Shown here in pieces: positions 5,542 to 60,634 of a DNA stretch of 64,000 bases. The notes under the pieces are model-generated. The model saw only the letters and a list, made by a program, of their open reading frames with translations, did not search any database and was not told the DNA's origin. Where the stretch lies: IMG/VR virus record IMGVR_UViG_3300042891_001180; one strand, 5' to 3'. The position numbers were made by a program, and so were the translations under genes. Within the stretch, counting starts at the first letter, position 1; each line of letters begins with the position of its first letter. This DNA is from a virus.

Positions 5542-5584
5542 CAGTTATACCCCAGTATAATATTATGAGGTATAATAATAAAGG

Positions 5585-5656: not shown

Positions 5657-5664
5657 TTATCGGT

Positions 5665-7167: not shown

Positions 7168-7171
7168 AATA

Positions 7172-7247
<76 letters not shown>

Positions 7248-22162: not shown

Positions 22163-23109
22163 ATAAACACCTCTTTAAATTTATTCATTACAGGTACTGG
22201 TTTAAATTGCTCTACCCTCTTAGTCCAGTCTTGCTTAAACTCTGATAGGTTATGGAGCATGTAGTTAAGATGGCTTGCATCATTATATAATAGACCACTA
22301 CCTTTTAACATATCTAAATGGTTTAAATCATGACCATTATTCCAGGCAAGGACCGGTTTATTAAGAGATAAGAACTCAGCGATCGATAGACCGAAACTCT
22401 CCCCCCTCTCCCTTGCATGTAACATTGCATCACAAGTATTAATAAAGTCTGCTTTACGTTGAACGTCATGAATTTCGTTAATGAACTTCACATTAGGGTG
22501 AGATACGAAAGGTTCGGTACCCATCATAAGAAAAACAAACGTATCATTATCTTGAACTAGCTTAGTAATATAGTCTTTTACAAATTTAATATCAAAGGTA
22601 AAATAACCACCAAGTCGACCAATAATAATTTGATCAGGTCTAATACCTAATGCTTCTCTATAGTCTTTTTTAGGTTCAGGTAAATCTACAATATGCGGAA
22701 CAAACGGTAACTTACCGTCTGACATTTTATTAGATAACCATTCAGAGATATATGCGTACCGATCACCATGCGGTTCATAATGCTGAAATACTGAATGAAT
22801 AGCCGTCCTGGTATTAGTTACCAGATCACCTTCCTTATGACCGGCTCTGATAAAGTAAGCCATATCGACTTTTTCTTTATCTATTAATTTTTGTAATTGA
22901 CCTTCTTTATAGCATTCGATCTTGAATCGTTGTTTAAGGTTATGTAGTACAACGGCCTCAGTCCCCATGTCTTTTTCATACCCTAGACTCTCATTATAAA
23001 CAATTACGCTTTCATTACCTAAGACTTCTTGATTGTATCTTGCATAGTCGGTAACAGCAACCGTAGTACCCCGAAAGTTTAATGTATTAGCGTGAAATAA
23101 TATCTTCAT
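22159..23109 (-). CDS. GT-B glycosyltransferase (GT4-like)
   Basis: RGTTVA, GRLGG, GESFGLSIAE. Confidence 0.82.
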   Translation of the reverse strand: MKILFHANTLNFRGTTVAVTDYARYNQEVLGNESVIVYNESLGYEKDMGTEAVVLHNLKQRFKIECYKEGQLQKLIDKEKVDMAYFIRAGHKEGDLVTNTRTAIHSVFQHYEPHGDRYAYISEWLSNKMSDGKLPFVPHIVDLPEPKKDYREALGIRPDQIIIGRLGGYFTFDIKFVKDYITKLVQDNDTFVFLMMGTEPFVSHPNVKFINEIHDVQRKADFINTCDAMLHARERGESFGLSIAEFLSLNKPVLAWNNGHDLNHLDMLKGSGLLYNDASHLNYMLHNLSEFKQDWTKRVEQFKPVPVMNKFKEVFI

Positions 23110-23771
23110 AGTTTAAATGTAGTAGCAGAAGTAAAGAACTCAGTTGTAAATTCGTCTCTAGTAACCTGATTGCAACGTTTAACAAACATCTCGATGTTCT
23201 CTGCCATTCGTGATTGATACAGATGATAAATTGAATTATCAAATACAGTACCTATACCATAATAGCCAAGATTACTTAAAGGCCAGATTCCTTCCGAAGA
23301 AGGCTTTTCAAAATATGTAGGCATCAGTGTACGATACTTCATACCCTTTTCTTCAGCCATATAACATATTTCTTCAGCTGTATCTGACCGACGTGTTTCT
23401 GTAAATGACGGGCGGCCTAGCTTATCATATGCTTTCTTAGAGATTGCATAGAAGCCGGGAGCGGCGTAGATATGAGATTTAGGGGGGATATGATTTGAGA
23501 CTTGAGCAATGCCAACGAACGTCTCATTCCTATTTGCATACTTAATATACTCTAAGTAGCTCTTATTAAGAGGTATACAATCGGGTTCCATAAACACTAT
23601 AACATCACTCGATGAATTATTAATTACCCATTGCATCCACATACCATGATTATGACCATCACGGTTATCATAATTCATTGGAATCTTGAAATAATCCATA
23701 ACCCGCTGATGGGCCGACAGCATATCTTTGTCTACGTTATTCCAATGTAACGAATTAAATTCAATTTTCAT
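23106..23771 (-). CDS. Putative GT-A fold protein
   Basis: IVFMEPDCIP (DxD-like); first gene of the sugar cluster. Confidence 0.55.
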   Translation of the reverse strand: MKIEFNSLHWNNVDKDMLSAHQRVMDYFKIPMNYDNRDGHNHGMWMQWVINNSSSDVIVFMEPDCIPLNKSYLEYIKYANRNETFVGIAQVSNHIPPKSHIYAAPGFYAISKKAYDKLGRPSFTETRRSDTAEEICYMAEEKGMKYRTLMPTYFEKPSSEGIWPLSNLGYYGIGTVFDNSIYHLYQSRMAENIEMFVKRCNQVTRDEFTTEFFTSATTFKL

Positions 23772-25475: not shown

Positions 25476-25550
25476 TGGTCCGGCGACCAGGAATCGAACC
25501 TGGATTGATAGCTTAGAAGGCTACTGTTCTGTCCATTGAACTACCGCCAG
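25476..25550 (-). tRNA. tRNA-Arg(TCT)
   Basis: GTAGC-CT-TCT-AA-GCTAT; GGTTCGATTCC; CCA end. Confidence 0.92.
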
Positions 25551-25560
25551 CAAACTAGAA

Positions 25561-25632
25561 GCACTCTTGTTTGGATTCGAACCTTGTTCTAGTATTGTCT
25601 ATCTGCGCTTCCCACAGTGCTGACAAGAGTGC
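25561..25632 (-). ncRNA. tRNA-like structured RNA inside the tRNA array
   Basis: 10-bp closing stem GCACTCTTGT/ACAAGAGTGC; CTGTG-GGAAG-CGCAG hairpin; TAG-ACAATA-CTA; GG-TTCGAAT-CC T loop. Confidence 0.55.
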
Positions 25633-25643
25633 ATGATTATATA

Positions 25644-25717
25644 TGGAGCGGGGTAAGAGAATCGAACTCTCCGCATGAGCTTGGAAGGCTCAGGTATTAC
25701 CACTATACGAACCCCGC
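25644..25717 (-). tRNA. tRNA-Gly(TCC)
   Basis: TGAGC-CT-TCC-AA-GCTCA; GTTCGATTC; CCA end. Confidence 0.93.
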
Positions 25718-25725
25718 AATTAAAA

Positions 25726-25800
25726 TGGAAGAGCGTAGGAGAATCGAACTCCTCTTCTTAGGATGAAAACCTAATGTCCTAACCGATAGACGAACGCTCC
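25726..25800 (-). tRNA. tRNA-Glu(TTC)
   Basis: TTAGG-TT-TTC-AT-CCTAA; GTTCGATTC; CCA end. Confidence 0.9.
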
Positions 25801-25804
25801 AAAA

Positions 25805-25879
25805 TGGCGGTCCCAAGGAGTAACGATCTCCTTCTTCTAGCGTGACAAGCTAGCGTGCGTCCGTGAACACTTTGGAACC
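25805..25879 (-). tRNA. tRNA-Asp(GTC) with atypical T loop
   Basis: CTAGC-TT-GTC-AC-GCTAG; AGGAG-ATCGTTA-CTCCT; GCCA end. Confidence 0.85.
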
Positions 25880-45472: not shown

Positions 45473-46075
45473 TTAATATGCAAACATTGACATTGTAAAG
45501 CGTCCTGAGCACTCTATTGAAGAGTCAATCATTGTTATTTCTGAAACTTCATGAACATTGTGGCTAAGAAATACAACGCTCATATTATTTTGAACCGGTA
45601 TAGTTATATTATATTCTGAAAATTTAAAATCTCCTCCTGTAAAGTTTTTTGGTTCTTTAAAAAACCATGCGCATATGCTTAAATAAGCTCTGTCTGTATG
45701 AGCCTTATAATAATCTGCAGTTTCATAGTATGATATTAATGTAAAGTATTTTTTTGGTAAATAAATTGACGAGTAATCTGGGTGGAATTGAAAATACAAA
45801 TCCTTCATATCCTTAGTAAGAAATTTACGATTTAATCTTAAAATATCAGAAAAGTCTCTGTTTTTATATACATGATCAAGAAAGACCCCTTTATTTTGTT
45901 TTAAAAAAAACTCTTTTTCAGAATCGATACCTACAGCTCCTCCAGTCTCGTTTGGATAGAGTAATTTTGGATGAATAAATTCAAGTTCGCGATTTATAAT
46001 TTTTAGTTCATCAGGAGTAAATACTTCATTTATAACCATATATGGTATTGGTTCTTTTACATAAGTAATAATCAT
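45473..46075 (-). CDS. 2OG-Fe(II) oxygenase
   Basis: YKAHTD, FTGGDF, HEV, GRF. Confidence 0.8.
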   Translation of the reverse strand: MIITYVKEPIPYMVINEVFTPDELKIINRELEFIHPKLLYPNETGGAVGIDSEKEFFLKQNKGVFLDHVYKNRDFSDILRLNRKFLTKDMKDLYFQFHPDYSSIYLPKKYFTLISYYETADYYKAHTDRAYLSICAWFFKEPKNFTGGDFKFSEYNITIPVQNNMSVVFLSHNVHEVSEITMIDSSIECSGRFTMSMFAY

Positions 46076-47784: not shown

Positions 47785-48842
47785 ACTTCTTCATAGTTTT
47801 GCGCTTCAACATATAACGTCTTCATTAAGGTCTTGATGCGTGTCTTATCAGCCTCAGTATCTAAGCTATCAACATATTGTGATAGTAAGGTAACAGTATC
47901 TTCTAGATCTACTTCTTGATCACCCATTGCATCTGCTTCAAACTCAGATAGATCTTCAATAATTTTTAACTCTAAGGGGTTAACCTTATACAATCTCTCA
48001 ATAAACTGATCGTACTTATAGTAATCTTTTTTATTAACAACTATTAACTTAATGTGCTGGTTGGCATACTGACTTACATCAACAGTAGAAGGATCTACTT
48101 TCTCGTCGTCGTAGTAGACTTTAGAAAAGATCGAAAACGGGTTCTGAATAAAATCCAACGATCTCTCACTGGTGTCGAATATATGAAAGCCACGAGGGTC
48201 TTCGAAATCCGCCCAGGTAAGCTCATAAGGATTTCCAAGATAGTTAATGTTCCCATTACTACTACGGTGGTGAAAGTGGCCAGAACAAACCAGATCGAAC
48301 TTCTCAAATATCTTAGGATCAAATCCTTCATCGTTCTCGTGACCTTTATACATCTGAAAGCCAGCAATCTCAAAGTGCCCGAACAGTACCTGGGCATCGG
48401 TAGTCTTGATAGCTTCCATGCTTTGATTATAATTATCTGTACATATCCATGGCATCATGAATATCTTAGACCCATCATCGAATACTATCTCTGAAGGGGT
48501 ATCAATAACATTGAACTCATAGTCTTTAAGCAATAGACGAGGGGAGTTAACGTCATTGGTATTCTTAAAGAAGGTATCGTGATTACCTACAATCATATGT
48601 AGTTCGATATCCCTTTTTTTAATTTCGTCAAAAAAGTAACTACGACAAGAAGACAAGGTATTAAAATTGATATACTTACGGCGATCGAAACAATCACCAA
48701 GGTGTACAATATGTCGTATACCCCTTTTATCAATCTCAGGGAAGAAGACTTCCTCATAAAATTTCCTAAAGAAATTATCAAAGGGGATACTATCCGAGCG
48801 GGCACCGAAATGGGTATCGGTTACAAGCGCTATTTTAGTCAT
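47781..48842 (-). CDS. gp47: Recombination endonuclease subunit, Mre11/SbcD-like
   Basis: TDTHFG, GDCFDRRK, GNHD, GHFE, SGHFH. Confidence 0.95.
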   Translation of the reverse strand: MTKIALVTDTHFGARSDSIPFDNFFRKFYEEVFFPEIDKRGIRHIVHLGDCFDRRKYINFNTLSSCRSYFFDEIKKRDIELHMIVGNHDTFFKNTNDVNSPRLLLKDYEFNVIDTPSEIVFDDGSKIFMMPWICTDNYNQSMEAIKTTDAQVLFGHFEIAGFQMYKGHENDEGFDPKIFEKFDLVCSGHFHHRSSNGNINYLGNPYELTWADFEDPRGFHIFDTSERSLDFIQNPFSIFSKVYYDDEKVDPSTVDVSQYANQHIKLIVVNKKDYYKYDQFIERLYKVNPLELKIIEDLSEFEADAMGDQEVDLEDTVTLLSQYVDSLDTEADKTRIKTLMKTLYVEAQNYEEV

Positions 48843-49311
48843 TAAACTCGTTATCTTCCTTGTGTCCAACACGCATGGCCATATTGCTATCAGTCTCACG
48901 TACCTCTACCTTATAGCACCAGATACGATTTTGCTCTCCATAGCTTGGTAAAAAGATAGTATTTATATATTCATACAAAAAGTCTGCCAGACCTTCACAC
49001 CCAGTCTTTTCTACTTCTGTAATCTTAGCAATACCCTGCTTACCAAGTTCAAGTAGATATTCACGCTTAGGGTCGTCTTGTGCTACTAGCAAAGTATGAT
49101 CAAACCATTCTTCTAGTTTATCTTTTAATGGGCGCAGACCACCAAAGTCCATTACCCAATTGCGTGCATCCAATGTATCAGATTCGAACTCAAAGTGAAA
49201 TGATAAAGCATAACCATGGACTAAGTTACAGTGACTATCAGCTCTCCACTGACGGTACGCAACAGGTCCAATCTGCTTATACGTTTTAGTTGAAATATAT
49301 TTTTTTGCCAT
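48835..49311 (-). CDS. queD: 6-carboxytetrahydropterin synthase
   Basis: HCNLVHGY, WVMDFGG, FDHT, VRET..N.A. Confidence 0.88.
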   Translation of the reverse strand: MAKKYISTKTYKQIGPVAYRQWRADSHCNLVHGYALSFHFEFESDTLDARNWVMDFGGLRPLKDKLEEWFDHTLLVAQDDPKREYLLELGKQGIAKITEVEKTGCEGLADFLYEYINTIFLPSYGEQNRIWCYKVEVRETDSNMAMRVGHKEDNEFND

Positions 49312-49314
49312 TTT

Positions 49315-49378
49315 TTTCCTATGTTAATTAGCATAGGCAGCAGAATTTATAGAGCGGGATGACGCCGGAGACCGCTTA
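49315..49378 (-). promoter_or_regulatory. Candidate preQ1-I-like riboswitch in the queD leader
   Basis: AGCGG-TCTCCGGCGTCATC-CCGCT-CTATAAATTCTGCTGCC, then CCTATG-N8-CATAGG hairpin over the RBS. Confidence 0.5.
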
Positions 49379-49381
49379 TTT

Positions 49382-50122
49382 TTACTCAAGTAGATTATCT
49401 TTTATTTCTTTAAGCATACGCTTCTTTATCTTACTCTGATTAAAGATTAAATATATCTCTTCAAAATATGTCTTAATAGGAAATTTTTTTGTTTCTCTTA
49501 CTGACACACAAGTTTCATACATATTTCTTAATGCAAGGGTGTAGTAAAATTTTTTAAATACTATTTTTTTATCTGTAAAAAACTCTATGTAATATAAGAT
49601 ATCATTTAACTTAATGTTTACTGTTCCTGGCTCTTTAATATACAGAGCAACATCTAATAGTCTTACCCATTGACCGATGTCAAAGGATCCTTCAATAATA
49701 CCTGTTTTTTTCGTAAAGTCATTATTTGTATAATTGGCATTCTTTTGTTTTATAAGTAAAGATGGTTCCTCTGTAAAAAGAAAATATTTACATAAATTAA
49801 AAGACATAAGTCCTGTATTAGCATCCCTTGCAACGATACATTTATCTGAAAACTCTTTATCATGATCAGGCGTATATATGTTATGACCGTCCCATTTAAT
49901 TTTTACTTCAGCTGGTGATGTAATTGTAAATGTATTATTTAAACTATTAAGTACAGCAGGACATTTTAGAAAATTATTTTTATCATTATCAGGGTGTACA
50001 AGTTTATGCCCCAATTGCCTTAACTCCTTAATTGCAGGTTCAGGTTCTTTGTGGGTCAAGTTAAATTTTGATTGTACAAAGCCTGGCGCCCAATATACAA
50101 TAATTTCTTCTTTATCTCTCAT
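49382..50122 (-). CDS. Hypothetical AT-rich protein interrupting the deazaguanine cluster
   Basis: VYWAP, KCPAV...NTFTI.SP, GSFDIGQWVR. Confidence 0.65.
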   Translation of the reverse strand: MRDKEEIIVYWAPGFVQSKFNLTHKEPEPAIKELRQLGHKLVHPDNDKNNFLKCPAVLNSLNNTFTITSPAEVKIKWDGHNIYTPDHDKEFSDKCIVARDANTGLMSFNLCKYFLFTEEPSLLIKQKNANYTNNDFTKKTGIIEGSFDIGQWVRLLDVALYIKEPGTVNIKLNDILYYIEFFTDKKIVFKKFYYTLALRNMYETCVSVRETKKFPIKTYFEEIYLIFNQSKIKKRMLKEIKDNLLE

Positions 50123-50649
50123 ACGTATTTTTTATCATGTTCTTTACCAATACCATAACTACCATCGTACATCTTTAATGCCTCAGCATCAAAGGACAAA
50201 TACTGCCCTACCCTCGTACCTTGCTTAATGCGCGCGACACCAGTCGTAACATGAAGTACCCCGGCCATGACACCGTGATAGCCAGAATCATAAAGACCTG
50301 AAGTAATAAAACAACCATTGCGGTTAAGAGTGCTACGAGTAATGACCCAACCAGCTTCCCCCTCGCCCACATGGATGACGTTTTCCATAACGATCTCATA
50401 ACTCCCCGGGTATAGCGTAAAATAACCTTCTCCGTCTGGATTGAGTTCCGTAGAACCTCTATGCTTTTTGTGATCATTGCTTACCTCAAACACTTCGTTA
50501 TTAATTTGAAATACCTTACCTAAACGTAGATCTACAGCATTAGGTTGAATATCTCCATCAACAACATTGGTAAGCTTAGTCCTACTACTTTCCCCCATCA
50601 CGTGCTTCATACTAAAGGGTTCTGAATATAATTTATATGTAACTGTCAT
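50119..50649 (-). CDS. dCTP deaminase/dUTPase family protein
   Basis: QPNAVDLRL, RSTLNRNG, YDSGYHG, RVGQ. Confidence 0.8.
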   Translation of the reverse strand: MTVTYKLYSEPFSMKHVMGESSRTKLTNVVDGDIQPNAVDLRLGKVFQINNEVFEVSNDHKKHRGSTELNPDGEGYFTLYPGSYEIVMENVIHVGEGEAGWVITRSTLNRNGCFITSGLYDSGYHGVMAGVLHVTTGVARIKQGTRVGQYLSFDAEALKMYDGSYGIGKEHDKKYV

Positions 50650-51263
50650 GCATTCTCCGGGATGTAATATGGATTCTCCATTGTCTGAAAATAAGCAATA
50701 GGAGATATTTGTTTGTACTTAAGATTAATTTTAAATACTCTATTAGGTGGTAACGACTCAGTAAACTCAACCTTGGTGGATGAGAAGTTTAAATCTTTAT
50801 CGTAGAACATTGGTGATATTTCATTCCTGAATACAAACAACTCACCACTATTATACATGATACAGGCAAAAGTGCCATCGACTCTGGATAATGCACTCCA
50901 GCCGTAGTTAAGAACTTGTTCTAGTAACCATTGAGTATCCCAGGTACCTTCTGATAAGTTCTTTTGCTTGATAATACCATTATGCCATAGCATACAGTCC
51001 CCGTATACTGCTGGGTGAATATTATTGGCATTGGTAGTTGGTGCCTGGCTATGAGCAATATAATACTTGTTATCTCCTTGAGCAAGACCCGTGATAAGAC
51101 CTTCAGGTATCCTATCTCTATCTTGCATCATTGTATCTAATCGTACCTTATGCTCATCAAACGAAAACGCGGAAAGGGAGTAACTTAACTCCCCCCTATA
51201 AGCATTCAATCGATATAAATCGGTCAGTTTATTCTGACTAAATGAACCAGTTATTGCGCACAT
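50646..51263 (-). CDS. Stand-alone class II (Ntn) glutamine amidotransferase
   Basis: N-terminal nucleophile Cys (M-CAITG), RG, HSQAPT, HP, HNGII, DT, DGTFA. Confidence 0.8.
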   Translation of the reverse strand: MCAITGSFSQNKLTDLYRLNAYRGELSYSLSAFSFDEHKVRLDTMMQDRDRIPEGLITGLAQGDNKYYIAHSQAPTTNANNIHPAVYGDCMLWHNGIIKQKNLSEGTWDTQWLLEQVLNYGWSALSRVDGTFACIMYNSGELFVFRNEISPMFYDKDLNFSSTKVEFTESLPPNRVFKINLKYKQISPIAYFQTMENPYYIPENA

Positions 51264-51264
51264 G

Positions 51265-52029
51265 TTACACCTTCATTTTTCCGATTAGGTCTTGCCAAGG
51301 GATTACTTTAGAATACTCTACAGGATCATTATAACCTATTTTAGCAAAATTGGCAATACGTTCCGAGCAACTAGGACACTCACCACATGAACGATGTTGT
51401 GCATCAGGGTTGTAACACGTCATAGTAAATGCCGTAAGCATAAAGTTACCATCTAGTTCTTGCAAGATCTGTAACTCATCGTACTTAGACAGTTGACTGA
51501 AAGGTGCAGTTAATTTAATCTTAATGATACGGTTTTCAGATAGCAGATCATTTACTTTATCTACCCAGCGTTGAGTAGTATCGTGGTAGCCATACTCATC
51601 ATGAACCTGTAGCCCACAAACAACAGTATCAACGTTCTGGGTCTCTGCAAAGGCGGCCGCAATAGACATCAAGATCATATTACGGTTAGGTACATAAGTC
51701 TTAGGACGAGGATCACCTAAAACGTCTTTAATGGTAGGCATAGCCATATCGGTATCAACATTAGCAGAAAAGCCTTTACTGATATCACCTAGGAAAGATG
51801 CATCAACTACTCTATGCTTAACACCTAGTAGGTTAGTAGACATTCTAGCCATCTCAATCTCACGCTTCTGCTTCTGACCGTAGTAGAAGGTTAGAGCCGA
51901 TACGTTTTCTTTGCCATACTTCTGTACAGCCAATCTCATAGCAATGGTACTATCCATACCGCCAGATAGAATAACTACACAGCCGTCTACATCAGGCAAT
52001 AATGCTAGCGCTTCACTTGAAGTCATCAT
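51265..52029 (-). CDS. queC: 7-cyano-7-deazaguanine synthase
   Basis: LSGGMDS, YGQK, TYVPNRN, TCY...CGECPSC..R. Confidence 0.94.
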   Translation of the reverse strand: MMTSSEALALLPDVDGCVVILSGGMDSTIAMRLAVQKYGKENVSALTFYYGQKQKREIEMARMSTNLLGVKHRVVDASFLGDISKGFSANVDTDMAMPTIKDVLGDPRPKTYVPNRNMILMSIAAAFAETQNVDTVVCGLQVHDEYGYHDTTQRWVDKVNDLLSENRIIKIKLTAPFSQLSKYDELQILQELDGNFMLTAFTMTCYNPDAQHRSCGECPSCSERIANFAKIGYNDPVEYSKVIPWQDLIGKMKV

Positions 52030-52231
52030 GTTTCTCTTTCAATTCTTTTTGAATACGGTGAATATAAACTACTGCATCCATCAGCTCTTCTTTCAGATGC
52101 TGAATCCATTGCATTAGATCTAGATCGGTACGCTCGGTAGTCACCCCGTACTTATCAAAGCCGTGACAGGCTCTTAACTCAAATTCATTACAAATTTCAT
52201 TTACGTTGGGATCAGGTCCAGTTATTTTCAT
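52013..52231 (-). CDS. Small MazG-like all-alpha NTP pyrophosphohydrolase
   Basis: G..KYGVT, W.QHLKEELMDAVVY (EExxD). Confidence 0.6.
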   Translation of the reverse strand: MKITGPDPNVNEICNEFELRACHGFDKYGVTTERTDLDLMQWIQHLKEELMDAVVYIHRIQKELKEKHDDFK

Positions 52232-53148
52232 TGTCTTGCTGTCTTTTCACAGAAGTTATAAGCATCAATAATAGGTGCTTGGTTTAAGAGATAGTAATTA
52301 GATGCGCGAGTAGGATTGATATCAATACCACCTCTACGAGTATACAAGCATGTGACCAATAACTCTTCAGGGTCTAACAAGTCATATAAGCGCTTGTAAA
52401 TGCATTCGGCAATCTCTTCATGGAAATGATTCTCTTTGCGCATTGATACAATGTACTGCAGTAATGATTCAGGGGTAACAGCCTTCTCGCCTTTAATATG
52501 AATATAAACATCACCCCAGTCTGGCTGGTTAGTTACTCGGCAATTTGAACGCAACGAATGTGAACGCCATCTTTCATAACGACCAATAGAAGGGACAACT
52601 TCAAGAATATCAGATGATTCATTATATTGATCAAATGACATCTTAGCAACATTACAGTATTCTTCAAGCGCCATAAAGTCACCTTTCAAAGGCTTGAGAG
52701 TATCTACATCACCAACTGCAATATAAACACCAACGTCTCCGCCTACAGCCTTGGAGAGATCTTTTTCAATTTGTTCTTCAATATAATGAAGATCTTCTTT
52801 ACCTTCAATTAAGCGAGCCATATTATAAGAGTTCAAATATAACTTAACCGATTTAGACTCAACAATATTAGGAGTACTGGATGAGTAAGTAAACTTTAAC
52901 CAACCGGAGATAGGAAAGCCATTCTTCTGTAAGGTAGAGAACTCATAAGCATTCCAGGCATCCATACCTACAAAAGGTAATTCTTCTTCTTGAATATCGT
53001 ATGCTGTACGATTCAAATAACGAGGTACAGAAACCAAGAGACTTGGATCAACTTCATCTGGCGTTACATAGGGGTTAACAGCTGACCCATCACCTGCCTT
53101 ACCTAAATGGACCCCAATCAGCTTATTCAGTTCGTCTTGATTACTCAT
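52228..53148 (-). CDS. queF: NADPH-dependent preQ0 reductase, bimodular type
   Basis: DAWNAYE, ESKSVKLYLNS QueF motif, catalytic C in SNCRVTNQPD, FHE, YTRRGGIDINP. Confidence 0.93.
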   Translation of the reverse strand: MSNQDELNKLIGVHLGKAGDGSAVNPYVTPDEVDPSLLVSVPRYLNRTAYDIQEEELPFVGMDAWNAYEFSTLQKNGFPISGWLKFTYSSSTPNIVESKSVKLYLNSYNMARLIEGKEDLHYIEEQIEKDLSKAVGGDVGVYIAVGDVDTLKPLKGDFMALEEYCNVAKMSFDQYNESSDILEVVPSIGRYERWRSHSLRSNCRVTNQPDWGDVYIHIKGEKAVTPESLLQYIVSMRKENHFHEEIAECIYKRLYDLLDPEELLVTCLYTRRGGIDINPTRASNYYLLNQAPIIDAYNFCEKTARQ

Positions 53149-53681
53149 TATCTTCCTTCTAAATGATCTAAAATTGTATTAACTCTATTACGCACAGAGC
53201 CTTTAACTCTAAGCATACTTAAATTTTCTTTTTCAATAACATATTCAAATAATTCTGCAATCTCATCTCTAAATTGCTTATTGATACTGCGTACACCATC
53301 ATCCACAATCTCAAACTCAGGCTCAATATAGAAGACATAATCATACGAATGCCATACTTTATTAAATACTTCTCTAACATATTTCAAAGTATTTGCACTA
53401 ATTTGATTTTTATTATACAAGTACGCACTATAAACTAAACCGTCTAGTGCAGTACGATCTGTTAACATATTACCGTACATGAACACATTAACAATATGCT
53501 CATTCATAATAAGACGTTGAGTTATATCGGTACCTTCTTCATTAATAGGTAAGCCATAACTCTTTACGCGACGAGTTACCTCATCACATACAACATAGTC
53601 TTTAAATAGTTTTTCCGAGCGCAACGCATTCAATAAAGTAGTCTTACCTACCGACTGCGCACCCGTTATACCAATCTTCAT
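53148..53681 (-). CDS. P-loop nucleotide kinase (NadR/AAA_28-like)
   Basis: ITGAQSVGKTT, DRTALD..VY, DDGVR. Confidence 0.8.
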   Translation of the reverse strand: MKIGITGAQSVGKTTLLNALRSEKLFKDYVVCDEVTRRVKSYGLPINEEGTDITQRLIMNEHIVNVFMYGNMLTDRTALDGLVYSAYLYNKNQISANTLKYVREVFNKVWHSYDYVFYIEPEFEIVDDGVRSINKQFRDEIAELFEYVIEKENLSMLRVKGSVRNRVNTILDHLEGR

Positions 53682-54220
53682 AATCCCTTTTCCCTTAAGA
53701 AGAAATTCCATGCCGATAACGAAGTCATCTTAAGTGAAGCATATAGATCTTCTCTAGTATAATTTCTATTACGTACATAGACAGATTTCAGTACATCACC
53801 ACCATCTAGTTCAGCTGTGCATTTATGTACAACACTGCCTATTATATTATACTTGTCGTTATCTTGCCATACTTTTTCTTGCGGATCTTTTCCTTTTAAC
53901 TCAGGGAAGAGAGTAATTGCTCCAGGATGGCCGTTATATACTTCGTATTTTTCACATATATCAGCTGGTAGAATGCGAAGGTAACCATGAAGACTAATAA
54001 GGGTCTGAGGAACATTATATACCACCTGATTTCTAAAGTAGTTCATTATCATATCATGCTTAGCAGACATAATAGTAACACCCAGCTCACGAATGCCTGG
54101 GTGAAATTTAATTTTATCTTCGAAGTTATTAGTTACCAATAAGTCTGGCTTACGCTTGATAGACTTAGATAACTCTACAATCTCAGAGCCTGTCTGACTA
54201 AAGAATGCAACCCACAACAT
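53678..54220 (-). CDS. PurN-fold formyltransferase, probably DpdN-like preQ1 formyltransferase
   Basis: FSQTGSE, LHGYLRIL, NGHPG, G.VVH...ELDGG; embedded among Que genes. Confidence 0.78.
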   Translation of the reverse strand: MLWVAFFSQTGSEIVELSKSIKRKPDLLVTNNFEDKIKFHPGIRELGVTIMSAKHDMIMNYFRNQVVYNVPQTLISLHGYLRILPADICEKYEVYNGHPGAITLFPELKGKDPQEKVWQDNDKYNIIGSVVHKCTAELDGGDVLKSVYVRNRNYTREDLYASLKMTSLSAWNFFLREKGL

Positions 54221-55020
54221 TACCTGTATCCGTGAACAAAAGAACGGAAGTACAAAATGTTATGCTTGATGGTATGCATAGTGGCTACCGAGGGCTCAGG
54301 AGTGTTAAGTAGCTCAATGAGCTTGATGGATTTCTTAGCATCCAGACCACCAGGCTCGTAACCAAGGCCCAGCAAAGCGTGAACAATAGGGTTGGAAGTA
54401 TCCAATGACTCCAACCATTCGAAACCTTGACGATAGAACATAAATTCAATCGGTAACGCGCACCCAAGGAGGTGATGCGGCTTTTTAGTATTGATAACAT
54501 CATCTTGTAATAATCTAGTTAAAGTTTGTACCCTACCTAATGCATAACCCACCCACTTGTTAGGATGAGGACAAACCTCGAGGTAGTACGAGTAGTCAAA
54601 GGAAATTGCAATCTTATCTACACCAATTACATTATCAAGATAATCATAGCATTGAACTATGTCTTCATAACTCTTACCCTGAACAACACCAATTTTCTTA
54701 CCAGGTATATCGGAATACTTTTCTTTCCAATCTAAAGCATTATCCATTGTACCGAGTGTATCTTCGAGTACATCAGGAATAATATATTCAGTAGGTTGTA
54801 GTTCTTTAATCCAATGGGCATACCGATCAGAATCAAATGCCGTACCTAATTCAAAGATAGAATTATCTAGCAAGACGGTTCGACCCTGAGCTAGAGAATC
54901 TTTAAAGAATTGGTAATAGGTTGGTTCGGTTTCGAACAAGTGGACAAGAGCGTAATCGTAATCGTTATAACTACGAGACCGATCAAGAAGGCAAAGCGGG
55001 GATTCATGACTAATTTTCAT
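54220..55020 (-). CDS. TGT/DpdA-like TIM-barrel protein (DpdA3-like candidate)
   Basis: LLDNSIFELG, IPDV, GVVQG, HHLLG, SLDTS in the order of TGT-family motifs; cluster context. Confidence 0.65.
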   Translation of the reverse strand: MKISHESPLCLLDRSRSYNDYDYALVHLFETEPTYYQFFKDSLAQGRTVLLDNSIFELGTAFDSDRYAHWIKELQPTEYIIPDVLEDTLGTMDNALDWKEKYSDIPGKKIGVVQGKSYEDIVQCYDYLDNVIGVDKIAISFDYSYYLEVCPHPNKWVGYALGRVQTLTRLLQDDVINTKKPHHLLGCALPIEFMFYRQGFEWLESLDTSNPIVHALLGLGYEPGGLDAKKSIKLIELLNTPEPSVATMHTIKHNILYFRSFVHGYR

Positions 55021-55454
55021 TGTAGTTTCTCAATAATATTCGATGTTACAGGGACCCAAATTACAGTATCATCGTACTTAGTTTTCTTTGCTCGATGTTT
55101 ATTTTCATTAACATAAGCTATCATATCTGTTATATTATAACGGTAAATAGATTTTGTATCCACATCTACCCCGTAAATTTGTTCCGCCATTGTAGTATAT
55201 AACCACCCTGCGCGATTTTTTCTTTTATTAACCAACTCCACACAAAGGGTACCCTTATAGTAGTTAGATTTAACATCAACAGCAACCCCGTTAATAATAC
55301 AATCAATCTTTAATACTACTTGACTGTTAATATCGTTCTTATCTTCAAATAAAATATTATTAGTCTTGCAATATTCTTCTACAATTGCTTCACCAAGGTC
55401 GCCCTTGGCACCATTAGCACCATAGCGACCTTCGGAGTTTGCATACCATGTCAT
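55017..55454 (-). CDS. PD-(D/E)XK nuclease-like protein
   Basis: G.LGE helix, ID, DVK, VE, GW. Confidence 0.55.
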   Translation of the reverse strand: MTWYANSEGRYGANGAKGDLGEAIVEEYCKTNNILFEDKNDINSQVVLKIDCIINGVAVDVKSNYYKGTLCVELVNKRKNRAGWLYTTMAEQIYGVDVDTKSIYRYNITDMIAYVNENKHRAKKTKYDDTVIWVPVTSNIIEKLQ

Positions 55455-55457
55455 ATA

Positions 55458-56135
55458 TTACTTCTTAATAAGAGACATGAACTCAGCGCGGCAATCGGGC
55501 TCACTCTTAAAGCAACCACCAAGCTTGGCTGTAAGCGTAGAGGAGGAATGATCTTCAACACCTCGACTCTTAACACAGTAATGGGTACCTTCAATGACCA
55601 CAGCAACATCTTCAGTACCAAGAATGAAGACCAATGCATGGTATACCTGCTCAGCAATACGTTCTTGGACTTGAGGACGACGCGAAAAGTATTCTACAAT
55701 ACGATTTAACTTAGATAGACCAAGTACTTTACCTTTAGGAATATAACCAATATGTGCTTTACCATCGATGGTAACAAAGTGGTGCTCGCAGTTAGACATC
55801 ATAGTGATGTCCTTCTCTACTACCATCTCATCATACCCCATCTTATTATCAATAACAGTACACTTAGGAAAGTTCTCTGGTTTCAGGCCCCAGAAAATCT
55901 CACGTACAAACATCTTAGCTACTCTCTTAGGAGTATCCATCAACGAGTCATCGGTCAAGTCAAGACCCAACGTCTCCATAATGACAGCAAAGTTCTTTTC
56001 GATCTTTGCAATCTTACGCTCATCCTTAACCCCAAGTCTATCCAAGACAATAGGTGTATGAACACCTTTAGAGATAAGATATTCTTCTACTTTATAGCCG
56101 AGTTCGGCATCTGTTTTTCCAGCTTGTAATGACAT
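55458..56135 (-). CDS. folE: GTP cyclohydrolase I
   Basis: DTPKRVAKM, CEHHF, GLSKLNR, RPQVQER, HYCVKSRGV. Confidence 0.96.
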   Translation of the reverse strand: MSLQAGKTDAELGYKVEEYLISKGVHTPIVLDRLGVKDERKIAKIEKNFAVIMETLGLDLTDDSLMDTPKRVAKMFVREIFWGLKPENFPKCTVIDNKMGYDEMVVEKDITMMSNCEHHFVTIDGKAHIGYIPKGKVLGLSKLNRIVEYFSRRPQVQERIAEQVYHALVFILGTEDVAVVIEGTHYCVKSRGVEDHSSSTLTAKLGGCFKSEPDCRAEFMSLIKK

Positions 56136-56136
56136 T

Positions 56137-56994
56137 TTAGGTTCCCCATTCATTTTTAAATAAAGGCACTTGAAGGCGATCGCTGTATCGATACCCCTTC
56201 TTCATGGCAAGTTCTGCCACAGCCCGGTTGTTCATATGATATACCGACTCGACACCACCAACAGGCATCAAGTATACCGGTCCTCTAAAGCCAGCTGCAC
56301 GATATGCTTCTACTGCCTTCTCTGCCTCATCTGCATCTTCCTGAGATGCAACTACAAACTTCAAGTACACATAACCCACCATACCATAGTCGGCTACGAT
56401 TTCTGGCTTGATAGCTTCATCCCACTTCTCACCTGATACCGATAACTTAGGAGATACAGAGAACGTTATCTGACGATCAAGGTTACCAGGATGACCCCAC
56501 CCCCATCTTTCAAGATAGTCTTTAAACTCTTTGGAAAGGTCTTGTGTGCCATTGGTCTCAAAGGTAATCTCCTTTAATGATCTCATCTTCGGGTGCTCAA
56601 GCAAGTCAGGGTACGCTCTCTGCCATCCCAGTAAAGGCTCCCCACCTGTAATTACTAGATGCTCTTCTTTCCATTCTTTGTACGGTAGAGAATCCACAAC
56701 AGCTTCGGCAACCGAATTAGTATCAAGAACGGGAGATAGGTGCTTAAAACGAGGATCCCAGCTAGCGTATGAATCACAGCCTGTACTGACAAGCGGTAAT
56801 TCTTTATATGAAAGATACTTCTTAACCTCTGCCGCCACATAGTCAACCTCTTTACTTTGTTCACCTTTAGGCATACCAAAGCCACTGCAGGTAAAGTTAC
56901 AACCAAAGGTGCGAAGGAATACAGAAGGTACACCCATGTACCGACCTTCACCTTGGATGGAGTAGAATAGCTCTGCTACTTTAAGTTTAGCCAT
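56137..56994 (-). CDS. queE: 7-carboxy-7-deazaguanine synthase (radical SAM)
   Basis: FYSIQGEG, FLRTFGCNFTC...CDS, ITGGEP, ETNGT, SVSPKL. Confidence 0.94.
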   Translation of the reverse strand: MAKLKVAELFYSIQGEGRYMGVPSVFLRTFGCNFTCSGFGMPKGEQSKEVDYVAAEVKKYLSYKELPLVSTGCDSYASWDPRFKHLSPVLDTNSVAEAVVDSLPYKEWKEEHLVITGGEPLLGWQRAYPDLLEHPKMRSLKEITFETNGTQDLSKEFKDYLERWGWGHPGNLDRQITFSVSPKLSVSGEKWDEAIKPEIVADYGMVGYVYLKFVVASQEDADEAEKAVEAYRAAGFRGPVYLMPVGGVESVYHMNNRAVAELAMKKGYRYSDRLQVPLFKNEWGT

Positions 56995-57170
56995 TAGACA
57001 AGCTCCTCCGCAATGCCGAGTATTTCAGCAACGATTAAGAGGACACCCGTAGTAATAAGGCTACCGTAGATGAGGGCAATGCCAGCTAGAATACGTAGAC
57101 CACTTTTTACAAAGCTAATCTTACGGTGGCGGTCGGGATCTGGAAGCAGATCAAAGTCAAATTGAATCAT
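56994..57170 (-). CDS. Small 58-aa membrane protein leading the Que operon
   Basis: AGGAG RBS; SFVKSGLRILAG...AEILGIAEELV; TAATG overlap with queE. Confidence 0.7.
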   Translation of the reverse strand: MIQFDFDLLPDPDRHRKISFVKSGLRILAGIALIYGSLITTGVLLIVAEILGIAEELV

Positions 57171-59986: not shown

Positions 59987-60634
59987 TTATTCTTGTGGAG
60001 TTAAATTACCAGCAAGTGATATTCTATAATCGTCGCTTGTATAAAATGGAGTTACACTATGTTGCAACCACGAAGGAAATATAATCATTTTTCCTTCCCA
60101 GCTGTTATCAAGCTGAATATCATAATTTATAATATTGGAAGTAAAGGGTTGCGGGGTGGGGTAATGAAATGAAAATACTGGGCCGTTAAAACGACTACTA
60201 TTTTTATTACTAGGCAAATCTGCTTCATCCTCTAAGTTATAAGGTATTTTTATCCAACCTGTAAAGCTTAAAGCACCAAAATGCTCATGAGCTGGGTTAT
60301 ATTCATATTTTTTTTGAAAATTTATCCATAAATTAAGGGTACCATCACGAGTTTTTGCTATGTTATATTTTCTTCCTGCTTCATAAAAATTATATTGAGC
60401 TTTCCAATATTCAGGTACTATTACTTCAAAAAATTTATTGAATTCTGCTACTGGTGTAGTAAATTTATATTCATGCTCTATTGCGCCTGCTAGACCATAC
60501 TTAAACGTTTTTTGACCTTTAAAATCTGAATCAATAATTTTAATAGATTGGAATTTAACATAATCTAAAATAGATTTTGGAATATCACAAATAAAATAGC
60601 CTAAAGAAACTAGTGGTATATATTCTGATGGCAT
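59987..60634 (-). CDS. 2OG-Fe(II) oxygenase-like protein
   Basis: WINFQKKYEYNPAHEH, FPSWLQHSVTPF, RISLAGN. Confidence 0.8.
   Translation of the reverse strand: MPSEYIPLVSLGYFICDIPKSILDYVKFQSIKIIDSDFKGQKTFKYGLAGAIEHEYKFTTPVAEFNKFFEVIVPEYWKAQYNFYEAGRKYNIAKTRDGTLNLWINFQKKYEYNPAHEHFGALSFTGWIKIPYNLEDEADLPSNKNSSRFNGPVFSFHYPTPQPFTSNIINYDIQLDNSWEGKMIIFPSWLQHSVTPFYTSDDYRISLAGNLTPQE

What the first reader, a model, noticed from the sequence alone, without database searches (positions are those of the whole stretch)
48835..57170. Complete 7-deazaguanine DNA-modification cluster predicting formyl-preQ1 in a T4-like phage
Seen: queE, folE, nuclease-like, TGT/DpdA-like, PurN-fold formyltransferase, nucleotide kinase, queF, MazG-like, queC, Ntn amidotransferase, dUTPase-like, an insert and queD form one coupled run between gp55 and gp47. 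Established: FolE-QueD-QueE-QueC make preQ0 and QueF makes preQ1; DpdA-family enzymes place 7-deazaguanines in phage DNA; a PurN-like formyltransferase (DpdN) giving fdPreQ1 has been described in a Flavobacterium phage (from memory, should be verified). Inference: this T4-like phage carries fdPreQ1 or a related base as anti-restriction armour, in a lineage and gene combination that may be uncharacterised.
Basis: partly seen in the sequence, partly recalled or inferred. Interest (0 to 1): 0.88.

Follow-up and report, generated by a model that had tools for sequence, protein, structure and literature searches.

The report
Phage formyl-preQ1 guanine-replacement gene cluster
An uncultured T4-like phage carries a diverged but complete copy of the known gene set that replaces the guanine in phage DNA with a formylated 7-deazaguanine, and the enzymes that always sit next to it suggest, without proving, that the swap is made on free nucleotides before the DNA is copied.

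Summary
Window 48835-57170 (minus strand) is one tightly coupled run of 14 genes between gp55 and gp47. It holds FolE, QueD-like, QueE, QueC and QueF, a TGT-fold enzyme, a PurN-fold formyltransferase and a nucleoside-kinase-like protein. It also holds an Ntn amidotransferase, a dUTPase/DCD-fold protein, a PD-(D/E)XK nuclease-like protein and three small or unknown ORFs. Only the "MazG-like" label could not be confirmed.

The TGT-fold protein is 52% identical to DpdA3 of Flavobacterium phage immuto_2-6A. The formyltransferase is 42% identical to that phage's DpdN. In immuto every G is fdPreQ1 (Cui, Hutinet et al. 2023). This is therefore a new member of a known system, on a new backbone (an uncultured T4-like phage).

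In 57 of 57 related viral contigs with enough flank, the order DpdA3 > (DpdN) > kinase > QueF is fixed. Distant DpdA3 lineages carry other P-loop kinases and dNTP-hydrolase-type genes. I therefore slightly favour entry through the nucleotide pool over the published editing of finished DNA; this is inference.

This scan has already reported the same system and the same idea on other DNA (54 notes, at least 38 genomes).

A conserved pseudoknotted leader precedes queD. It matches no Rfam family.

The parts
56994..57170 (-). 58-aa small hydrophobic protein, first gene of the run; function unknown
   Evidence: ORF list. The sequence has one long hydrophobic stretch. Homologues occur in 24 related loci. 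No family match.
56137..56994 (-). QueE-like radical-SAM enzyme (7-carboxy-7-deazaguanine synthase), with a 36-residue insert between the second and third cluster cysteines
   Evidence: NCBIfam QueE models reach E 4.5e-15 to 2e-10, below their cut-offs. Radical_SAM match is weak. Cys32, Cys36 and Cys73 are invariant in 37 homologues, which include immuto and phiST QueE.
55458..56153 (-). FolE, GTP cyclohydrolase I
   Evidence: PF01227, 203 bits. 45% identical to immuto FolE. CEHH and HYC motifs are present.
55017..55454 (-). 145-aa PD-(D/E)XK nuclease-like protein, fixed directly upstream of DpdA3 in the T4-like lineage
   Evidence: AF2 model pLDDT 83. Foldseek top matches are I-Ssp6803I, Eco15I/NhoI, D212, PvuII and Hjc, E 1e-3 to 0.1, TM about 0.5. 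There is a weak profile match to the FokI cleavage domain. D51, D60-V-K62 and E73 are invariant. Found at the same position in 19 loci.
54220..55020 (-). DpdA3-family TGT-fold base-exchange enzyme
   Evidence: 52% identical to immuto DpdA3, 43% to CP220 gp056, 26% to phiST CGPG_00065. pLDDT 97.4. TGT fold. D52, D83 and D207 are invariant. D207 and L185 align with the nucleophile Asp256 and Leu236 of bacterial DpdA.
53678..54220 (-). DpdN-family PurN-fold formyltransferase
   Evidence: 42% identical to immuto DpdN, and immuto strains are the only phage records with a match. The family profile matches PurN structures at E 1e-11. N96, H98, D139 and the N-terminal loop S8-Q9-x-G11-x-E13 are invariant. 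A natural DpdA3-DpdN fusion exists, P0132.
53148..53711 (-). Nucleoside/nucleotide-kinase-like P-loop protein (AAA_28)
   Evidence: PF13521, 62 bits. The family profile's best solved relatives are the NadR ribosylnicotinamide-kinase domain, deoxynucleoside kinase and thymidylate kinase. 38% identical to the immuto 'thymidylate kinase' next to DpdN and about 30-33% to the Campylobacter-phage kinases next to DpdA3 (CP220 gp057 29.6%). Present in 57 of 57 loci with flank.
52228..53148 (-). Bimodular QueF, preQ0 reductase that gives preQ1
   Evidence: QueF_N 107 bits and QueF 73 bits. The ESKSVKLY motif and the catalytic Cys in SNCRVTNQPD are present. 45% identical to immuto QueF.
52013..52231 (-).
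   Evidence: Only PHROGs families of unknown function match. No Pfam, NCBIfam or PDB match and no profile match to a PRA-PH hydrolase. 23 invariant columns in 11 homologues.
51265..52029 (-). QueC, preQ0 synthase
   Evidence: PF06508, 177 bits. SGGMDS loop and C-terminal Cys cluster are present.
50646..51263 (-). Ntn (class II) glutamine amidotransferase, probable ammonia donor for QueC
   Evidence: Weak GATase_6/7 matches. phrog_12378, E 2e-44. N-terminal Met-Cys. Homologues lie beside queC in KVP40-like Vibrio phages, including phi-Grn1, phi-ST2 and VH7D. [quoted passage not shown]
50119..50649 (-). Trimeric dUTPase/dCTP-deaminase-fold protein, substrate unknown
   Evidence: PF22769, 55 bits. 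NCBIfam archaeal-type dUTPase, 90 bits, below its cut-off. Best solved relative is a probable dUTPase, 9w59, E 3e-16. A related gene lies in the DpdA3 cluster of Chryseobacterium phage MA9V-3.
49382..50122 (-). 246-aa ORF of unknown function, inserted relative to the closest relatives
   Evidence: Missing between the dUTPase-like gene and queD in L006-L008. No phage match. phrog_17480, unknown function. Atlas neighbours are viral hypotheticals.
49306..49376 (-). Conserved structured leader of queD: H-type pseudoknot followed by a hairpin that covers the ribosome-binding site
   Evidence: 49 unique copies in viral contigs, and all 69 with a readable downstream ORF are followed by queD. The pseudoknot is 99.5% paired with compensatory changes in both helices. 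The nested alternative is 88% paired with none. No Rfam match.
48835..49311 (-). QueD-like 6-carboxytetrahydropterin synthase with HCxxxHGY in place of the CxxxHGH signature
   Evidence: PF01242, 58.6 bits. 37% identical to immuto QueD. The variant motif is shared by immuto, phiST and all related loci.

Best explanation
The cluster is a DpdA3/DpdN-type guanine-replacement module.

Shown by homology: FolE, QueD-like, QueE and QueC (fed ammonia by the Ntn amidotransferase) make preQ0 from GTP, and QueF reduces it to preQ1. DpdN puts a formyl group from a folate donor on the aminomethyl nitrogen. The TGT-fold DpdA3 exchanges guanine for the 7-deazaguanine. Virion DNA should therefore carry fdPreQ1 in place of most or all G and resist restriction enzymes.

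Inferred, and against the published model: I think the exchange is more likely made on a free deoxynucleoside or deoxynucleotide than on finished DNA. On this reading the neighbouring kinase phosphorylates the product on its way to the triphosphate. A dNTP-hydrolase-type enzyme (here possibly the dUTPase-fold protein) keeps dGTP out. The nuclease-like protein may supply dG nucleotides from host DNA. The phage polymerase then incorporates the modified dNTP, as in the T4 hydroxymethylcytosine pathway.
For: Module and product:
- DpdA3 is 52% and DpdN 42% identical to the immuto proteins. Immuto DNA has no dG and 345,000 fdPreQ1 per million nucleotides.
- TGT fold and the three invariant Asp residues.
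- The PurN catalytic Asn-His-Asp is invariant in DpdN.
- All five preQ1 genes are present with their motifs.
- A natural DpdA3-DpdN fusion exists.

Route:
- The kinase is present and in fixed order in 57 of 57 loci on three different phage backbones.
- Its nearest solved relatives are small-molecule kinases of nucleosides and nucleotides.
- Distant DpdA3 lineages have a different P-loop kinase family directly beside DpdA3: phiST CGPG_00066, MA9V-3, and the CP220 gp055 HD-kinase fusion.
- Hydrolases of the dNTP-cleaving kind, of three unrelated folds, sit in these clusters: dUTPase/DCD here and in MA9V-3, PRA-PH/MazG type in immuto, HD in CP220, and MazG/dUTPase in phiST per Cui et al..
- The bases made by these phages (DG, ADG, fdPreQ1) share no phosphorylatable side group, so the sugar is the only common kinase target (inference).
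- DpdN keeps the loop that aligns with the PurN loop GxGSN, which from memory binds the phosphate of GAR.
- DpdA3 has no Cys/His zinc motif and a net charge of about -12.
- ADG nucleoside was seen in CP220-infected cells, and DpdA3 did not work alone in E. coli (Cui et al.).
Against: - No DpdA3, DpdN or neighbouring kinase has been assayed.
- All characterised transglycosylases of this fold act on tRNA or DNA, and the authors who defined DpdA3 propose post-replicative insertion.
- Bacterial DpdA needs an ATPase partner, DpdB, to work on DNA. The P-loop neighbour could therefore be a helper ATPase and not a kinase.
- Complete post-replicative modification is possible in principle; T4 glucosylation is an example (own knowledge).
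- The dUTPase-fold gene occurs in only 10 of 80 related loci and may simply be a dUTPase.
- The 80 loci are relatives of the query, so the 57 of 57 count is not 57 independent events.
- The QueD-like protein lacks two of the three canonical zinc histidines.
Confidence: 0.45

Rival explanations
1. Same module and same product (fdPreQ1 DNA), but by the published route. The phage polymerase makes ordinary G-containing DNA. DpdA3 then works as a DNA transglycosylase that swaps each G for preQ1 or formyl-preQ1. DpdN formylates the free base or the base already in DNA. The P-loop neighbour is a helper ATPase or has an unrelated task.
For: - This is the model of Cui, Hutinet et al..
- The DpdA3 fold is closest to archaeosine TGT and bacterial DpdA, which act on polynucleotides.
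- The catalytic aspartates are as in DpdA.
- Bacterial DpdA requires the ATPase DpdB, a precedent for an NTPase partner.
- DpdA3 genes often lie next to the DNA polymerase gene.
Against: - The partner protein resembles nucleoside and nucleotide kinases, not ParB-like DpdB.
- Two different kinase families recur beside DpdA3.
- dNTP-hydrolase-type genes have no role in this model.
- DNA-level DpdA enzymes reach at most about 30% replacement.
- DpdA3 lacks the zinc subdomain.
- DpdA3 with DpdL gave no modified DNA in E. coli.
Confidence: 0.35
2. The module modifies DNA, but the final base is not fdPreQ1. Examples are plain dPreQ1, a mixture, or another acylated or amidated derivative. On this reading the formyltransferase homologue has a different acceptor or donor, or the separate amidotransferase diverts preQ0 toward an archaeosine-like base.
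For: - DpdN activity has never been shown in vitro.
- Identity to immuto DpdN is only 42%.
- A fused Gat-QueC gives dG+ in phage 9g.
- The cluster holds three proteins of unknown function.
Against: - DpdN is the gene most tightly linked to DpdA3, in 55 of 57 loci, and is sometimes fused to it.
- The catalytic triad and the family-specific motifs are invariant.
- Vibrio phages with the same separate amidotransferase plus QueC and QueF contain dPreQ1 and no dG+.
- QueF carries the nitrile-reductase motifs.
Confidence: 0.12
3. The genes do not modify phage DNA. They boost queuosine in tRNA (the window encodes a tRNA-Asp with anticodon GUC) or feed purine and folate metabolism, with the formyltransferase acting as PurN as in cyanophages.
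For: - Public annotation calls the formyltransferase PurN.
- purN is a known auxiliary gene of T4-like cyanophages (phrog_9240).
- Six tRNA genes are present, including tRNA-Asp GUC.
Against: - The closest characterised relatives of the TGT-fold protein belong to phages whose DNA is fully modified.
- No QueA, QueG or QueH is seen in the run.
- The formyltransferase matches PurN models far below their cut-off, 27 bits against 150.
- Its position between DpdA3 and the kinase is fixed.
Confidence: 0.03

Closest known systems
[quoted passage not shown]
   Same: - Orthologous DpdA3 (52%), DpdN (42%), kinase (38%), QueF (45%), FolE (45%) and QueD-like (37%).
- Same local order DpdA3 > DpdN > kinase > QueF.
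- Same variant QueD motif.
   Different: - The backbone here is T4-like (gp46/47, gp55, UvsW, gp23-type capsid). Immuto has a family A polymerase and GroEL/ES.
- This window lacks immuto's PRA-PH hydrolase and phosphoribosyltransferase.
- It has instead a dUTPase-fold protein, a separate Ntn amidotransferase, a PD-(D/E)XK nuclease-like protein, a 72-aa protein and a 246-aa insert.
- All pathway genes form one run here.
dADG system of Campylobacter phage CP220 and other Firehammervirus phages (DpdA3, complete replacement of G)
   Same: - DpdA3 is 43% identical.
- A kinase of the same family lies directly downstream.
- The phage is distantly T4-like.
   Different: - CP220 stops at CDG/ADG and has no QueF or DpdN.
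- It has an HD-phosphohydrolase fused to a second kinase upstream of DpdA3.
dDG system of Cellulophaga phage phiST (DpdA3 plus DpdL)
   Same: - Distant DpdA3 (26%).
- QueD-like with the same variant motif.
- A P-loop kinase-like gene directly upstream of DpdA3 and a dNTP-hydrolase-type gene in the cluster.
   Different: - No QueC, QueF or DpdN.
- The kinase belongs to another family (AAA_18/AAA_33).
- The product is 7-deazaguanine.
Bacterial DpdA/DpdB DNA transglycosylase (PDB 7UI4)
   Same: - TIM-barrel TGT fold (Z 17.0, rmsd 3.3 over 232 residues).
- The nucleophile Asp and the base-stacking Leu align by profile match; the general-acid Asp is assigned from motif spacing only.
   Different: - DpdA3 is about 150 residues shorter, lacks the zinc site and the DpdA-specific insertions, and has no DpdB.
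- Bacterial DpdA modifies under 0.1% of G.
T4 hydroxymethylcytosine pathway (gp56 dCTPase, gp42 dCMP hydroxymethylase, gp1 dNMP kinase). This is a comparison of how it may work, not of membership.
   Same: The gene logic matches: a dNTP hydrolase type, a base-changing enzyme and a small kinase in one module, in a phage that replaces one base completely. From memory, the T4 alpha-glucosyltransferase gene also lies between genes 47 and 55.
   Different: No homology between the enzymes. The nucleotide-level route here is inferred only.
Class I preQ1 riboswitch (Rfam RF00522), for the queD leader only
   Same: A small H-type pseudoknot with a 5-bp first stem, a 4-bp second stem, a C just before the 3' strand of stem 1 and a UAUAAA tail, placed before a 7-deazaguanine synthesis gene. 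The likeness to the class I consensus is from memory.
   Different: - No match to any Rfam preQ1 model, even at E up to 10 on 56 bases.
- The third loop is about twice as long.
- The second stem does not hold the ribosome-binding site.
- No ligand is known.

Membership tests
DpdA3 subfamily of TGT/DpdA (Cui et al. 2023) | Sequence homology to the founding members (phiST CGPG_00065, CP220 gp056, immuto YP_010114477) | tested here: met
   52%, 43% and 26% identity over most of the length. A family HMM built here scores the three at E 3e-134, 3e-88 and 1e-39.
DpdA3 subfamily of TGT/DpdA (Cui et al. 2023) | TGT-like TIM-barrel fold | tested here: met
   Model pLDDT 97.4. All 50 listed Foldseek matches are TGT, E about 3e-8. 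An independent aligner ranks archaeosine TGT (Z 18.2), DpdA (17.0), TGT (15.8) and QTRT2 (15.1) first, above generic TIM barrels at 14.9 or less.
DpdA3 subfamily of TGT/DpdA (Cui et al. 2023) | Catalytic aspartates of the TGT/DpdA mechanism (general acid/base, base-binding, nucleophile) | tested here: met
   D52, D83 and D207 are invariant in 88 homologues. D207 in the DTSNP motif aligns with the SIDS motif of bacterial DpdA, whose Asp256 is the nucleophile. The D52-x3-F56 spacing equals Asp95-Phe99. The assignment of D52 and D83 rests on motif spacing, not on a residue-level structural alignment.
DpdA3 subfamily of TGT/DpdA (Cui et al. 2023) | Co-encoded 7-deazaguanine synthesis genes | tested here: met
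   FolE, QueD-like, QueE, QueC and QueF lie in the same run.
DpdA3 subfamily of TGT/DpdA (Cui et al. 2023) | Complete replacement of G in virion DNA; guanine-exchange activity | not testable with these tools
   Needs nucleoside mass spectrometry of virion DNA and an enzyme assay. The phage is uncultured.
DpdN (proposed preQ1/dPreQ1 formyltransferase, group 1 of Cui et al.) | Homology to immuto YP_010114479 and co-encoding with DpdA and FolE-to-QueF | tested here: met
   42% identity over 97% of the length, and immuto strains are the only phage records with a match. The gene lies between DpdA3 and the kinase in 55 of 57 related loci.
DpdN (proposed preQ1/dPreQ1 formyltransferase, group 1 of Cui et al.) | PurN-type formyltransferase fold with the Asn-His-Asp catalytic triad | tested here: met
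   PF00551, 31.6 bits, above its cut-off. The family profile matches PurN structures at E 1e-11 along the whole length. N96, H98 and D139 are invariant.
DpdN (proposed preQ1/dPreQ1 formyltransferase, group 1 of Cui et al.) | Formylation of the 7-aminomethyl group | not testable with these tools
   Never assayed for any member.
PurN (GAR transformylase) | Score above the curated equivalog cut-off | tested here: not met
   TIGR00639 gives 27 bits against a cut-off of 150. The public name 'PurN' is therefore not supported.
preQ1 biosynthesis (FolE, QueD, QueE, QueC, QueF) | Each enzyme family present with its signature motifs | tested here: met
   FolE, QueC and QueF score well above the Pfam cut-offs and carry their motifs. 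QueE is below curated cut-offs but has three invariant Cys and clusters with immuto and phiST QueE. QueD is above the Pfam cut-off but carries HCxxxHGY instead of CxxxHGH, as do the QueD proteins of immuto and phiST, whose DNA is fully modified.
MazG-like NTP pyrophosphohydrolase (for the 72-aa ORF) | Profile or fold similarity to MazG/PRA-PH | tested here: inconclusive
   No Pfam or NCBIfam match at E 0.01. hhalign to immuto's PRA-PH hydrolase gives probability 0.2%. No PDB sequence match. Its structure was not predicted.
PD-(D/E)XK nucleases (for the 145-aa ORF) | Fold and the D...(D/E)xK motif | tested here: inconclusive
   All best fold matches are PD-(D/E)XK nucleases, but at E 1e-3 or weaker and TM about 0.5. 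D51, D60-x-K62 and E73 are invariant. No HMM match.
Class I, II or III preQ1 riboswitch (for the queD leader) | Match to the Rfam covariance models | tested here: not met
   No preQ1 family is listed at E up to 10 on 301 or on 56 bases.

The most novel reading that the evidence does not exclude
DpdA3 may not be a DNA transglycosylase at all. It may be a base-exchange enzyme for free deoxyguanosine or its phosphates. With its fixed kinase neighbour, a dGTP-removing hydrolase and perhaps a host-DNA nuclease, it would form a pre-replicative pathway that feeds a 7-deazaguanine dNTP to the polymerase. DpdN would formylate a preQ1 nucleotide that mimics GAR. The conserved pseudoknot before queD would be a new class of riboswitch sensing a pathway intermediate.
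Probability: 0.4. Interest if true: 0.8.

Novelty: new member of a known kind. Interest (0 to 1): 0.45.

Why it matters
It adds an abundant, uncultured T4-like lineage to the phages predicted to replace all G with fdPreQ1. The DpdA3 family counts thousands of sequence clusters in metagenomes, where it is annotated only as 'hypothetical' and its partner as 'PurN'. Such DNA resists most restriction enzymes and may be misread by sequencing and PCR, so it bears on phage ecology surveys and on the use of such phages or enzymes as tools. The fixed kinase neighbour turns the open question of how DpdA3 reaches 100% replacement into a simple set of enzyme assays. The queD leader is a candidate for a new regulatory RNA tied to 7-deazaguanine synthesis.

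Tried and rejected
- A megablast of the whole cluster against 50,697 phage records found nothing. No whole genome is held for this window.
- The 72-aa ORF could not be tied to MazG.
- The 263-aa 'methyltransferase' upstream of the homologous kinase in Streptomyces phage Karimac is not a DpdA3 relative (hhalign probability 0.2%). That kinase family therefore also occurs without DpdA3.
- My AAA_28 kinase HMM does not hit the phiST, BSTP12 or MA9V-3 loci. Pfam shows other P-loop kinase families there, and for BSTP12 only a weak P-loop match.
- The 246-aa insert has no phage match and no usable family.
- The promoter and terminator scan was not above its shuffled background.
- Rfam gave no family for the queD leader.
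- The nested minimum-free-energy fold of that leader (z-score -0.4) is contradicted by sequence variation.
- I found no paper after 2023 in the held library that tests DpdA3, DpdN or the kinase.
- I did not compute isoelectric points for DNA-acting DpdA enzymes, so the acidic charge of DpdA3 is only a weak hint.

Full report
**What is there**

Window 48835-57170 holds 14 minus-strand ORFs that overlap or abut. The only gap is 70 nt, before the last gene.

Family searches and motifs identify the five preQ1 enzymes:
- FolE: 203 bits.
- QueC: 177 bits.
- Bimodular QueF: 107 and 73 bits, with the ESKSVKLY motif and the catalytic Cys.
- QueD-like PTPS protein: 58.6 bits.
- QueE-like radical-SAM enzyme.

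Between them lie these genes:
- a 266-aa protein without any family match;
- a PurN-fold formyltransferase;
- an AAA_28 P-loop protein;
- an Ntn amidotransferase;
- a dUTPase/dCTP-deaminase-fold protein;
- ORFs of 145, 72, 246 and 58 residues.

The flanks are the late sigma factor gp55 (phrog_234, E 2e-58) and gp47/gp46 homologues. A gp23-type capsid protein, a clamp loader and UvsW are also in the window. The gp46 protein is 52% identical to Methylophilales phage Melnitz and 48% to T4-like cyanophages. The phage is therefore an uncultured T4-like phage. Its contig is about 154 kb.

**The two key enzymes**

The 266-aa protein matches, among 50,697 phage records, immuto-type Flavobacterium phages best (52%; annotated DNA guanine transglycosylase, DpdA). 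Next come Campylobacter Firehammervirus phages (43%), and distantly Cellulophaga phiST, some Bacillus phages and a Chryseobacterium phage.

Its AlphaFold model is very confident (pLDDT 97.4). All 50 listed Foldseek matches are tRNA-guanine transglycosylases. A search that does not lean on Foldseek ranks these first, above generic TIM barrels:

| Structure | Z |
|---|---|
| Archaeosine TGT | 18.2 |
| Bacterial DNA transglycosylase DpdA | 17.0 |
| Bacterial TGT | 15.8 |
| QTRT2 | 15.1 |

D52, D83 and D207 are invariant in 88 homologues. D207 and L185 align with the nucleophile Asp256 and with Leu236 of bacterial DpdA. There is no Cys/His zinc motif among the conserved columns.

The formyltransferase matches only the immuto phages (42%). 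That protein is DpdN. Its family profile aligns end to end with PurN structures (E 1e-11). The Asn-His-Asp triad is invariant. It scores far below the PurN equivalog cut-off.

Cui, Hutinet et al. 2023 (PMC10516641) showed that immuto DNA has no dG and 345,000 fdPreQ1 per million nucleotides. They defined DpdA3 as the subfamily that gives complete replacement and named DpdN as the predicted, untested formyltransferase.

**How common, and what travels with it**

The DpdA3 family is large:
- 3956 clusters at 90% identity within the length range searched;
- 1647 representatives at 50% identity;
- public names for the window's own proteins are 'hypothetical protein' and 'PurN'.

One natural protein fuses DpdA3 to DpdN.

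I fetched 80 viral contigs with DpdA3 at 50-98% identity. Around DpdA3, the most frequent companions are DpdN, the kinase and QueF, ahead of the preQ0 genes. Of the 57 loci with at least 2.5 kb downstream:
- all 57 carry the kinase and QueF;
- 55 carry DpdN;
- the order is always DpdA3 > DpdN > kinase > QueF.

Two loci lack DpdN and probably make plain dPreQ1.

The loci fall on three backbones:
- T4-like, like the window;
- immuto-like, with a family A polymerase, a PRA-PH hydrolase, a phosphoribosyltransferase and a non-specific endonuclease;
- a third with a family B polymerase gene ending at the start of DpdA3.

These loci are relatives, so the counts are not independent events.

**The route question**

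The authors of DpdA3 propose that all 7-deazaguanines enter DNA after replication. Several observations made here fit a nucleotide-pool route better.

The kinase profile's nearest solved relatives are the ribosylnicotinamide kinase domain of NadR, a deoxynucleoside kinase and thymidylate kinases. It has a P-loop, a DR motif and a conserved DDGxRS segment.

The more distant DpdA3 lineages have other P-loop proteins directly beside DpdA3:
- AAA_18/AAA_33 proteins in phiST (CGPG_00066) and Chryseobacterium phage MA9V-3;
- an HD-phosphohydrolase fused to an AAA_33 kinase, plus an AAA_28 kinase, in CP220;
- a weakly P-loop-like protein in Bacillus phage BSTP12.

Hydrolases of the dNTP-cleaving kind, of three unrelated folds, sit in these clusters:
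- dUTPase/DCD fold here and in MA9V-3;
- PRA-PH in immuto;
- HD in CP220;
- MazG or dimeric dUTPase in phiST, according to Cui et al..

The bases these phages install differ at position 7, so the sugar is the only common target for a kinase (inference). DpdN keeps an invariant N-terminal loop that aligns with the GxGSN loop of PurN. From memory, that loop binds the phosphate of GAR. A preQ1 nucleotide would place a primary amine at a similar distance from a ribose phosphate (inference).

ADG nucleoside was found in CP220-infected cells, and DpdA3 expressed with DpdL gave no modified DNA in E. coli.

Against this:
- No member of any of these families has been assayed.
- Known transglycosylases of this fold act on tRNA or DNA.
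- Bacterial DpdA needs the ATPase DpdB, so a P-loop partner could be a helper for work on DNA.
- The dUTPase-fold gene is found in only 10 of the 80 loci and could be an ordinary dUTPase.

One structural neighbour, Cap10 of type IV CBASS (Z 14.5), is deposited in complex with its CD-NTase (entry title: 'NDG modification'). Abstracts listed report protein-nucleobase conjugation with a 7-deazaguanine in that system. This hints that the fold is not confined to polynucleotide substrates.

I put the pool route at about 0.45, the published route at about 0.35, another product at 0.12 and a role outside DNA at 0.03.

**Accessory genes**

- Ntn amidotransferase. It has homologues beside queC in KVP40-like Vibrio phages. 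Two of these, phi-Grn1 and phi-ST2, have DNA with dPreQ1 and no dG+. It most likely feeds ammonia to QueC and does not make archaeosine as the fused Gat-QueC of phage 9g does.
- 145-aa protein. Its model resembles PD-(D/E)XK nucleases at weak scores and it has invariant D51, D60-x-K62 and E73. It holds the same place upstream of DpdA3 in 19 loci, which does not look like a roving homing endonuclease. It may cut unmodified DNA; that is speculation.
- 72-aa protein. It is conserved but could not be shown to be MazG-like.
- 246-aa ORF. It is absent from the nearest relatives and is a lineage-specific insert of unknown function.

**A regulatory RNA candidate**

I found the same sequence in over 60 viral contigs, with 49 unique versions. 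It is often just downstream of a TGTATAAT promoter-like box. In all 69 contigs where the downstream ORF could be read, that ORF was queD.

An H-type pseudoknot (AGCGG/CCGCU and GGCR/YGYC) is 99.5% paired. The outer pair of the first stem switches between A-U (32) and U-A (16). One pair of the second stem runs through G-C (23), G-U (15) and A-U (10). The nested fold preferred by energy minimisation loses pairs at exactly the variable positions. A hairpin that covers the AGGA ribosome-binding site follows.

No Rfam family matches, the three preQ1 classes included.

Caveats: the copies were collected with sequence patterns that fix many columns, and the two covarying pairs may reflect few events.

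**Verdict**

This is a new member of the known DpdA3/DpdN fdPreQ1 system on a new, T4-like backbone, with an accessory set of its own. The same system and the same pool-route idea have already been reported by this scan on other DNA (54 notes in at least 38 genomes). I had noted the idea before reading them and tested the linkage on my own set of loci.

Noticed in passing
window 49306-49376 (minus strand): Conserved leader before queD. It forms an H-type pseudoknot with compensatory changes in both stems, followed by a hairpin over the ribosome-binding site. It is present in over 60 viral contigs, and all 69 with a readable downstream ORF have queD there. It matches no Rfam family, including the preQ1 riboswitch classes.
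   Followed up: yes
window 48835-49311; also L001:4917-5378 and L003:4630-5124: The QueD-like protein carries H-C-x3-H-G-Y and lacks two of the three canonical zinc histidines of the CxxxHGH signature. The same variant occurs in immuto, phiST and all related loci. Bacillus phage BSTP12 keeps the canonical motif.
   Followed up: partly
window 56137-56994: QueE has its three invariant cluster cysteines spaced C-x3-C-x36-C. The insert lies between the second and third Cys; immuto and BSTP12 have short spacers there.
   Followed up: partly
window 49382-50122: A 246-aa basic ORF of unknown function is inserted between the dUTPase-fold gene and the queD leader. It is absent from the closest relatives (L006-L008). 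Homologues at 33-34% identity lie elsewhere in L019 and L021.
   Followed up: partly
P0132; P0124; L063 and L066: Variants of the module seen elsewhere: a natural DpdA3-DpdN fusion protein (447 aa); a DpdA3 with a C-terminal NUMOD3 motif (475 aa); and two contigs with DpdA3 > kinase > QueF but no DpdN, which probably make plain dPreQ1.
   Followed up: partly
L003:7475-7954, L086:5507-5977, L002:7868-8899: Proteins left unexplained in the literature or annotated as hypothetical, all directly beside DpdA3. phiST CGPG_00066 and a 156-aa MA9V-3 protein are AAA_18/AAA_33 kinase-like. CP220 gp055 is an HD phosphohydrolase fused to an AAA_33 kinase.
   Followed up: partly
window 17854-23771 (minus strand): A run of sugar-nucleotide-type genes: a 635-aa protein with a methyltransferase-like part, a nucleotide-sugar epimerase-like protein, an aminotransferase and several unknowns. 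It is possibly a second modification or glycan module.
   Followed up: no
window 5583-7247 and 25476-25879: Six tRNA genes: two Met, Arg-TCT, Gly-TCC, Glu-TTC and Asp-GTC. tRNA-Asp GUC is one of the tRNAs that normally receive queuosine.
   Followed up: no
window 45473-46075 and 59987-60634: Two 2OG-Fe(II) oxygenase homologues lie near the module, separated from it by gp46/gp47 on one side and by gp55, a 140-aa ORF and UvsW on the other.
   Followed up: no
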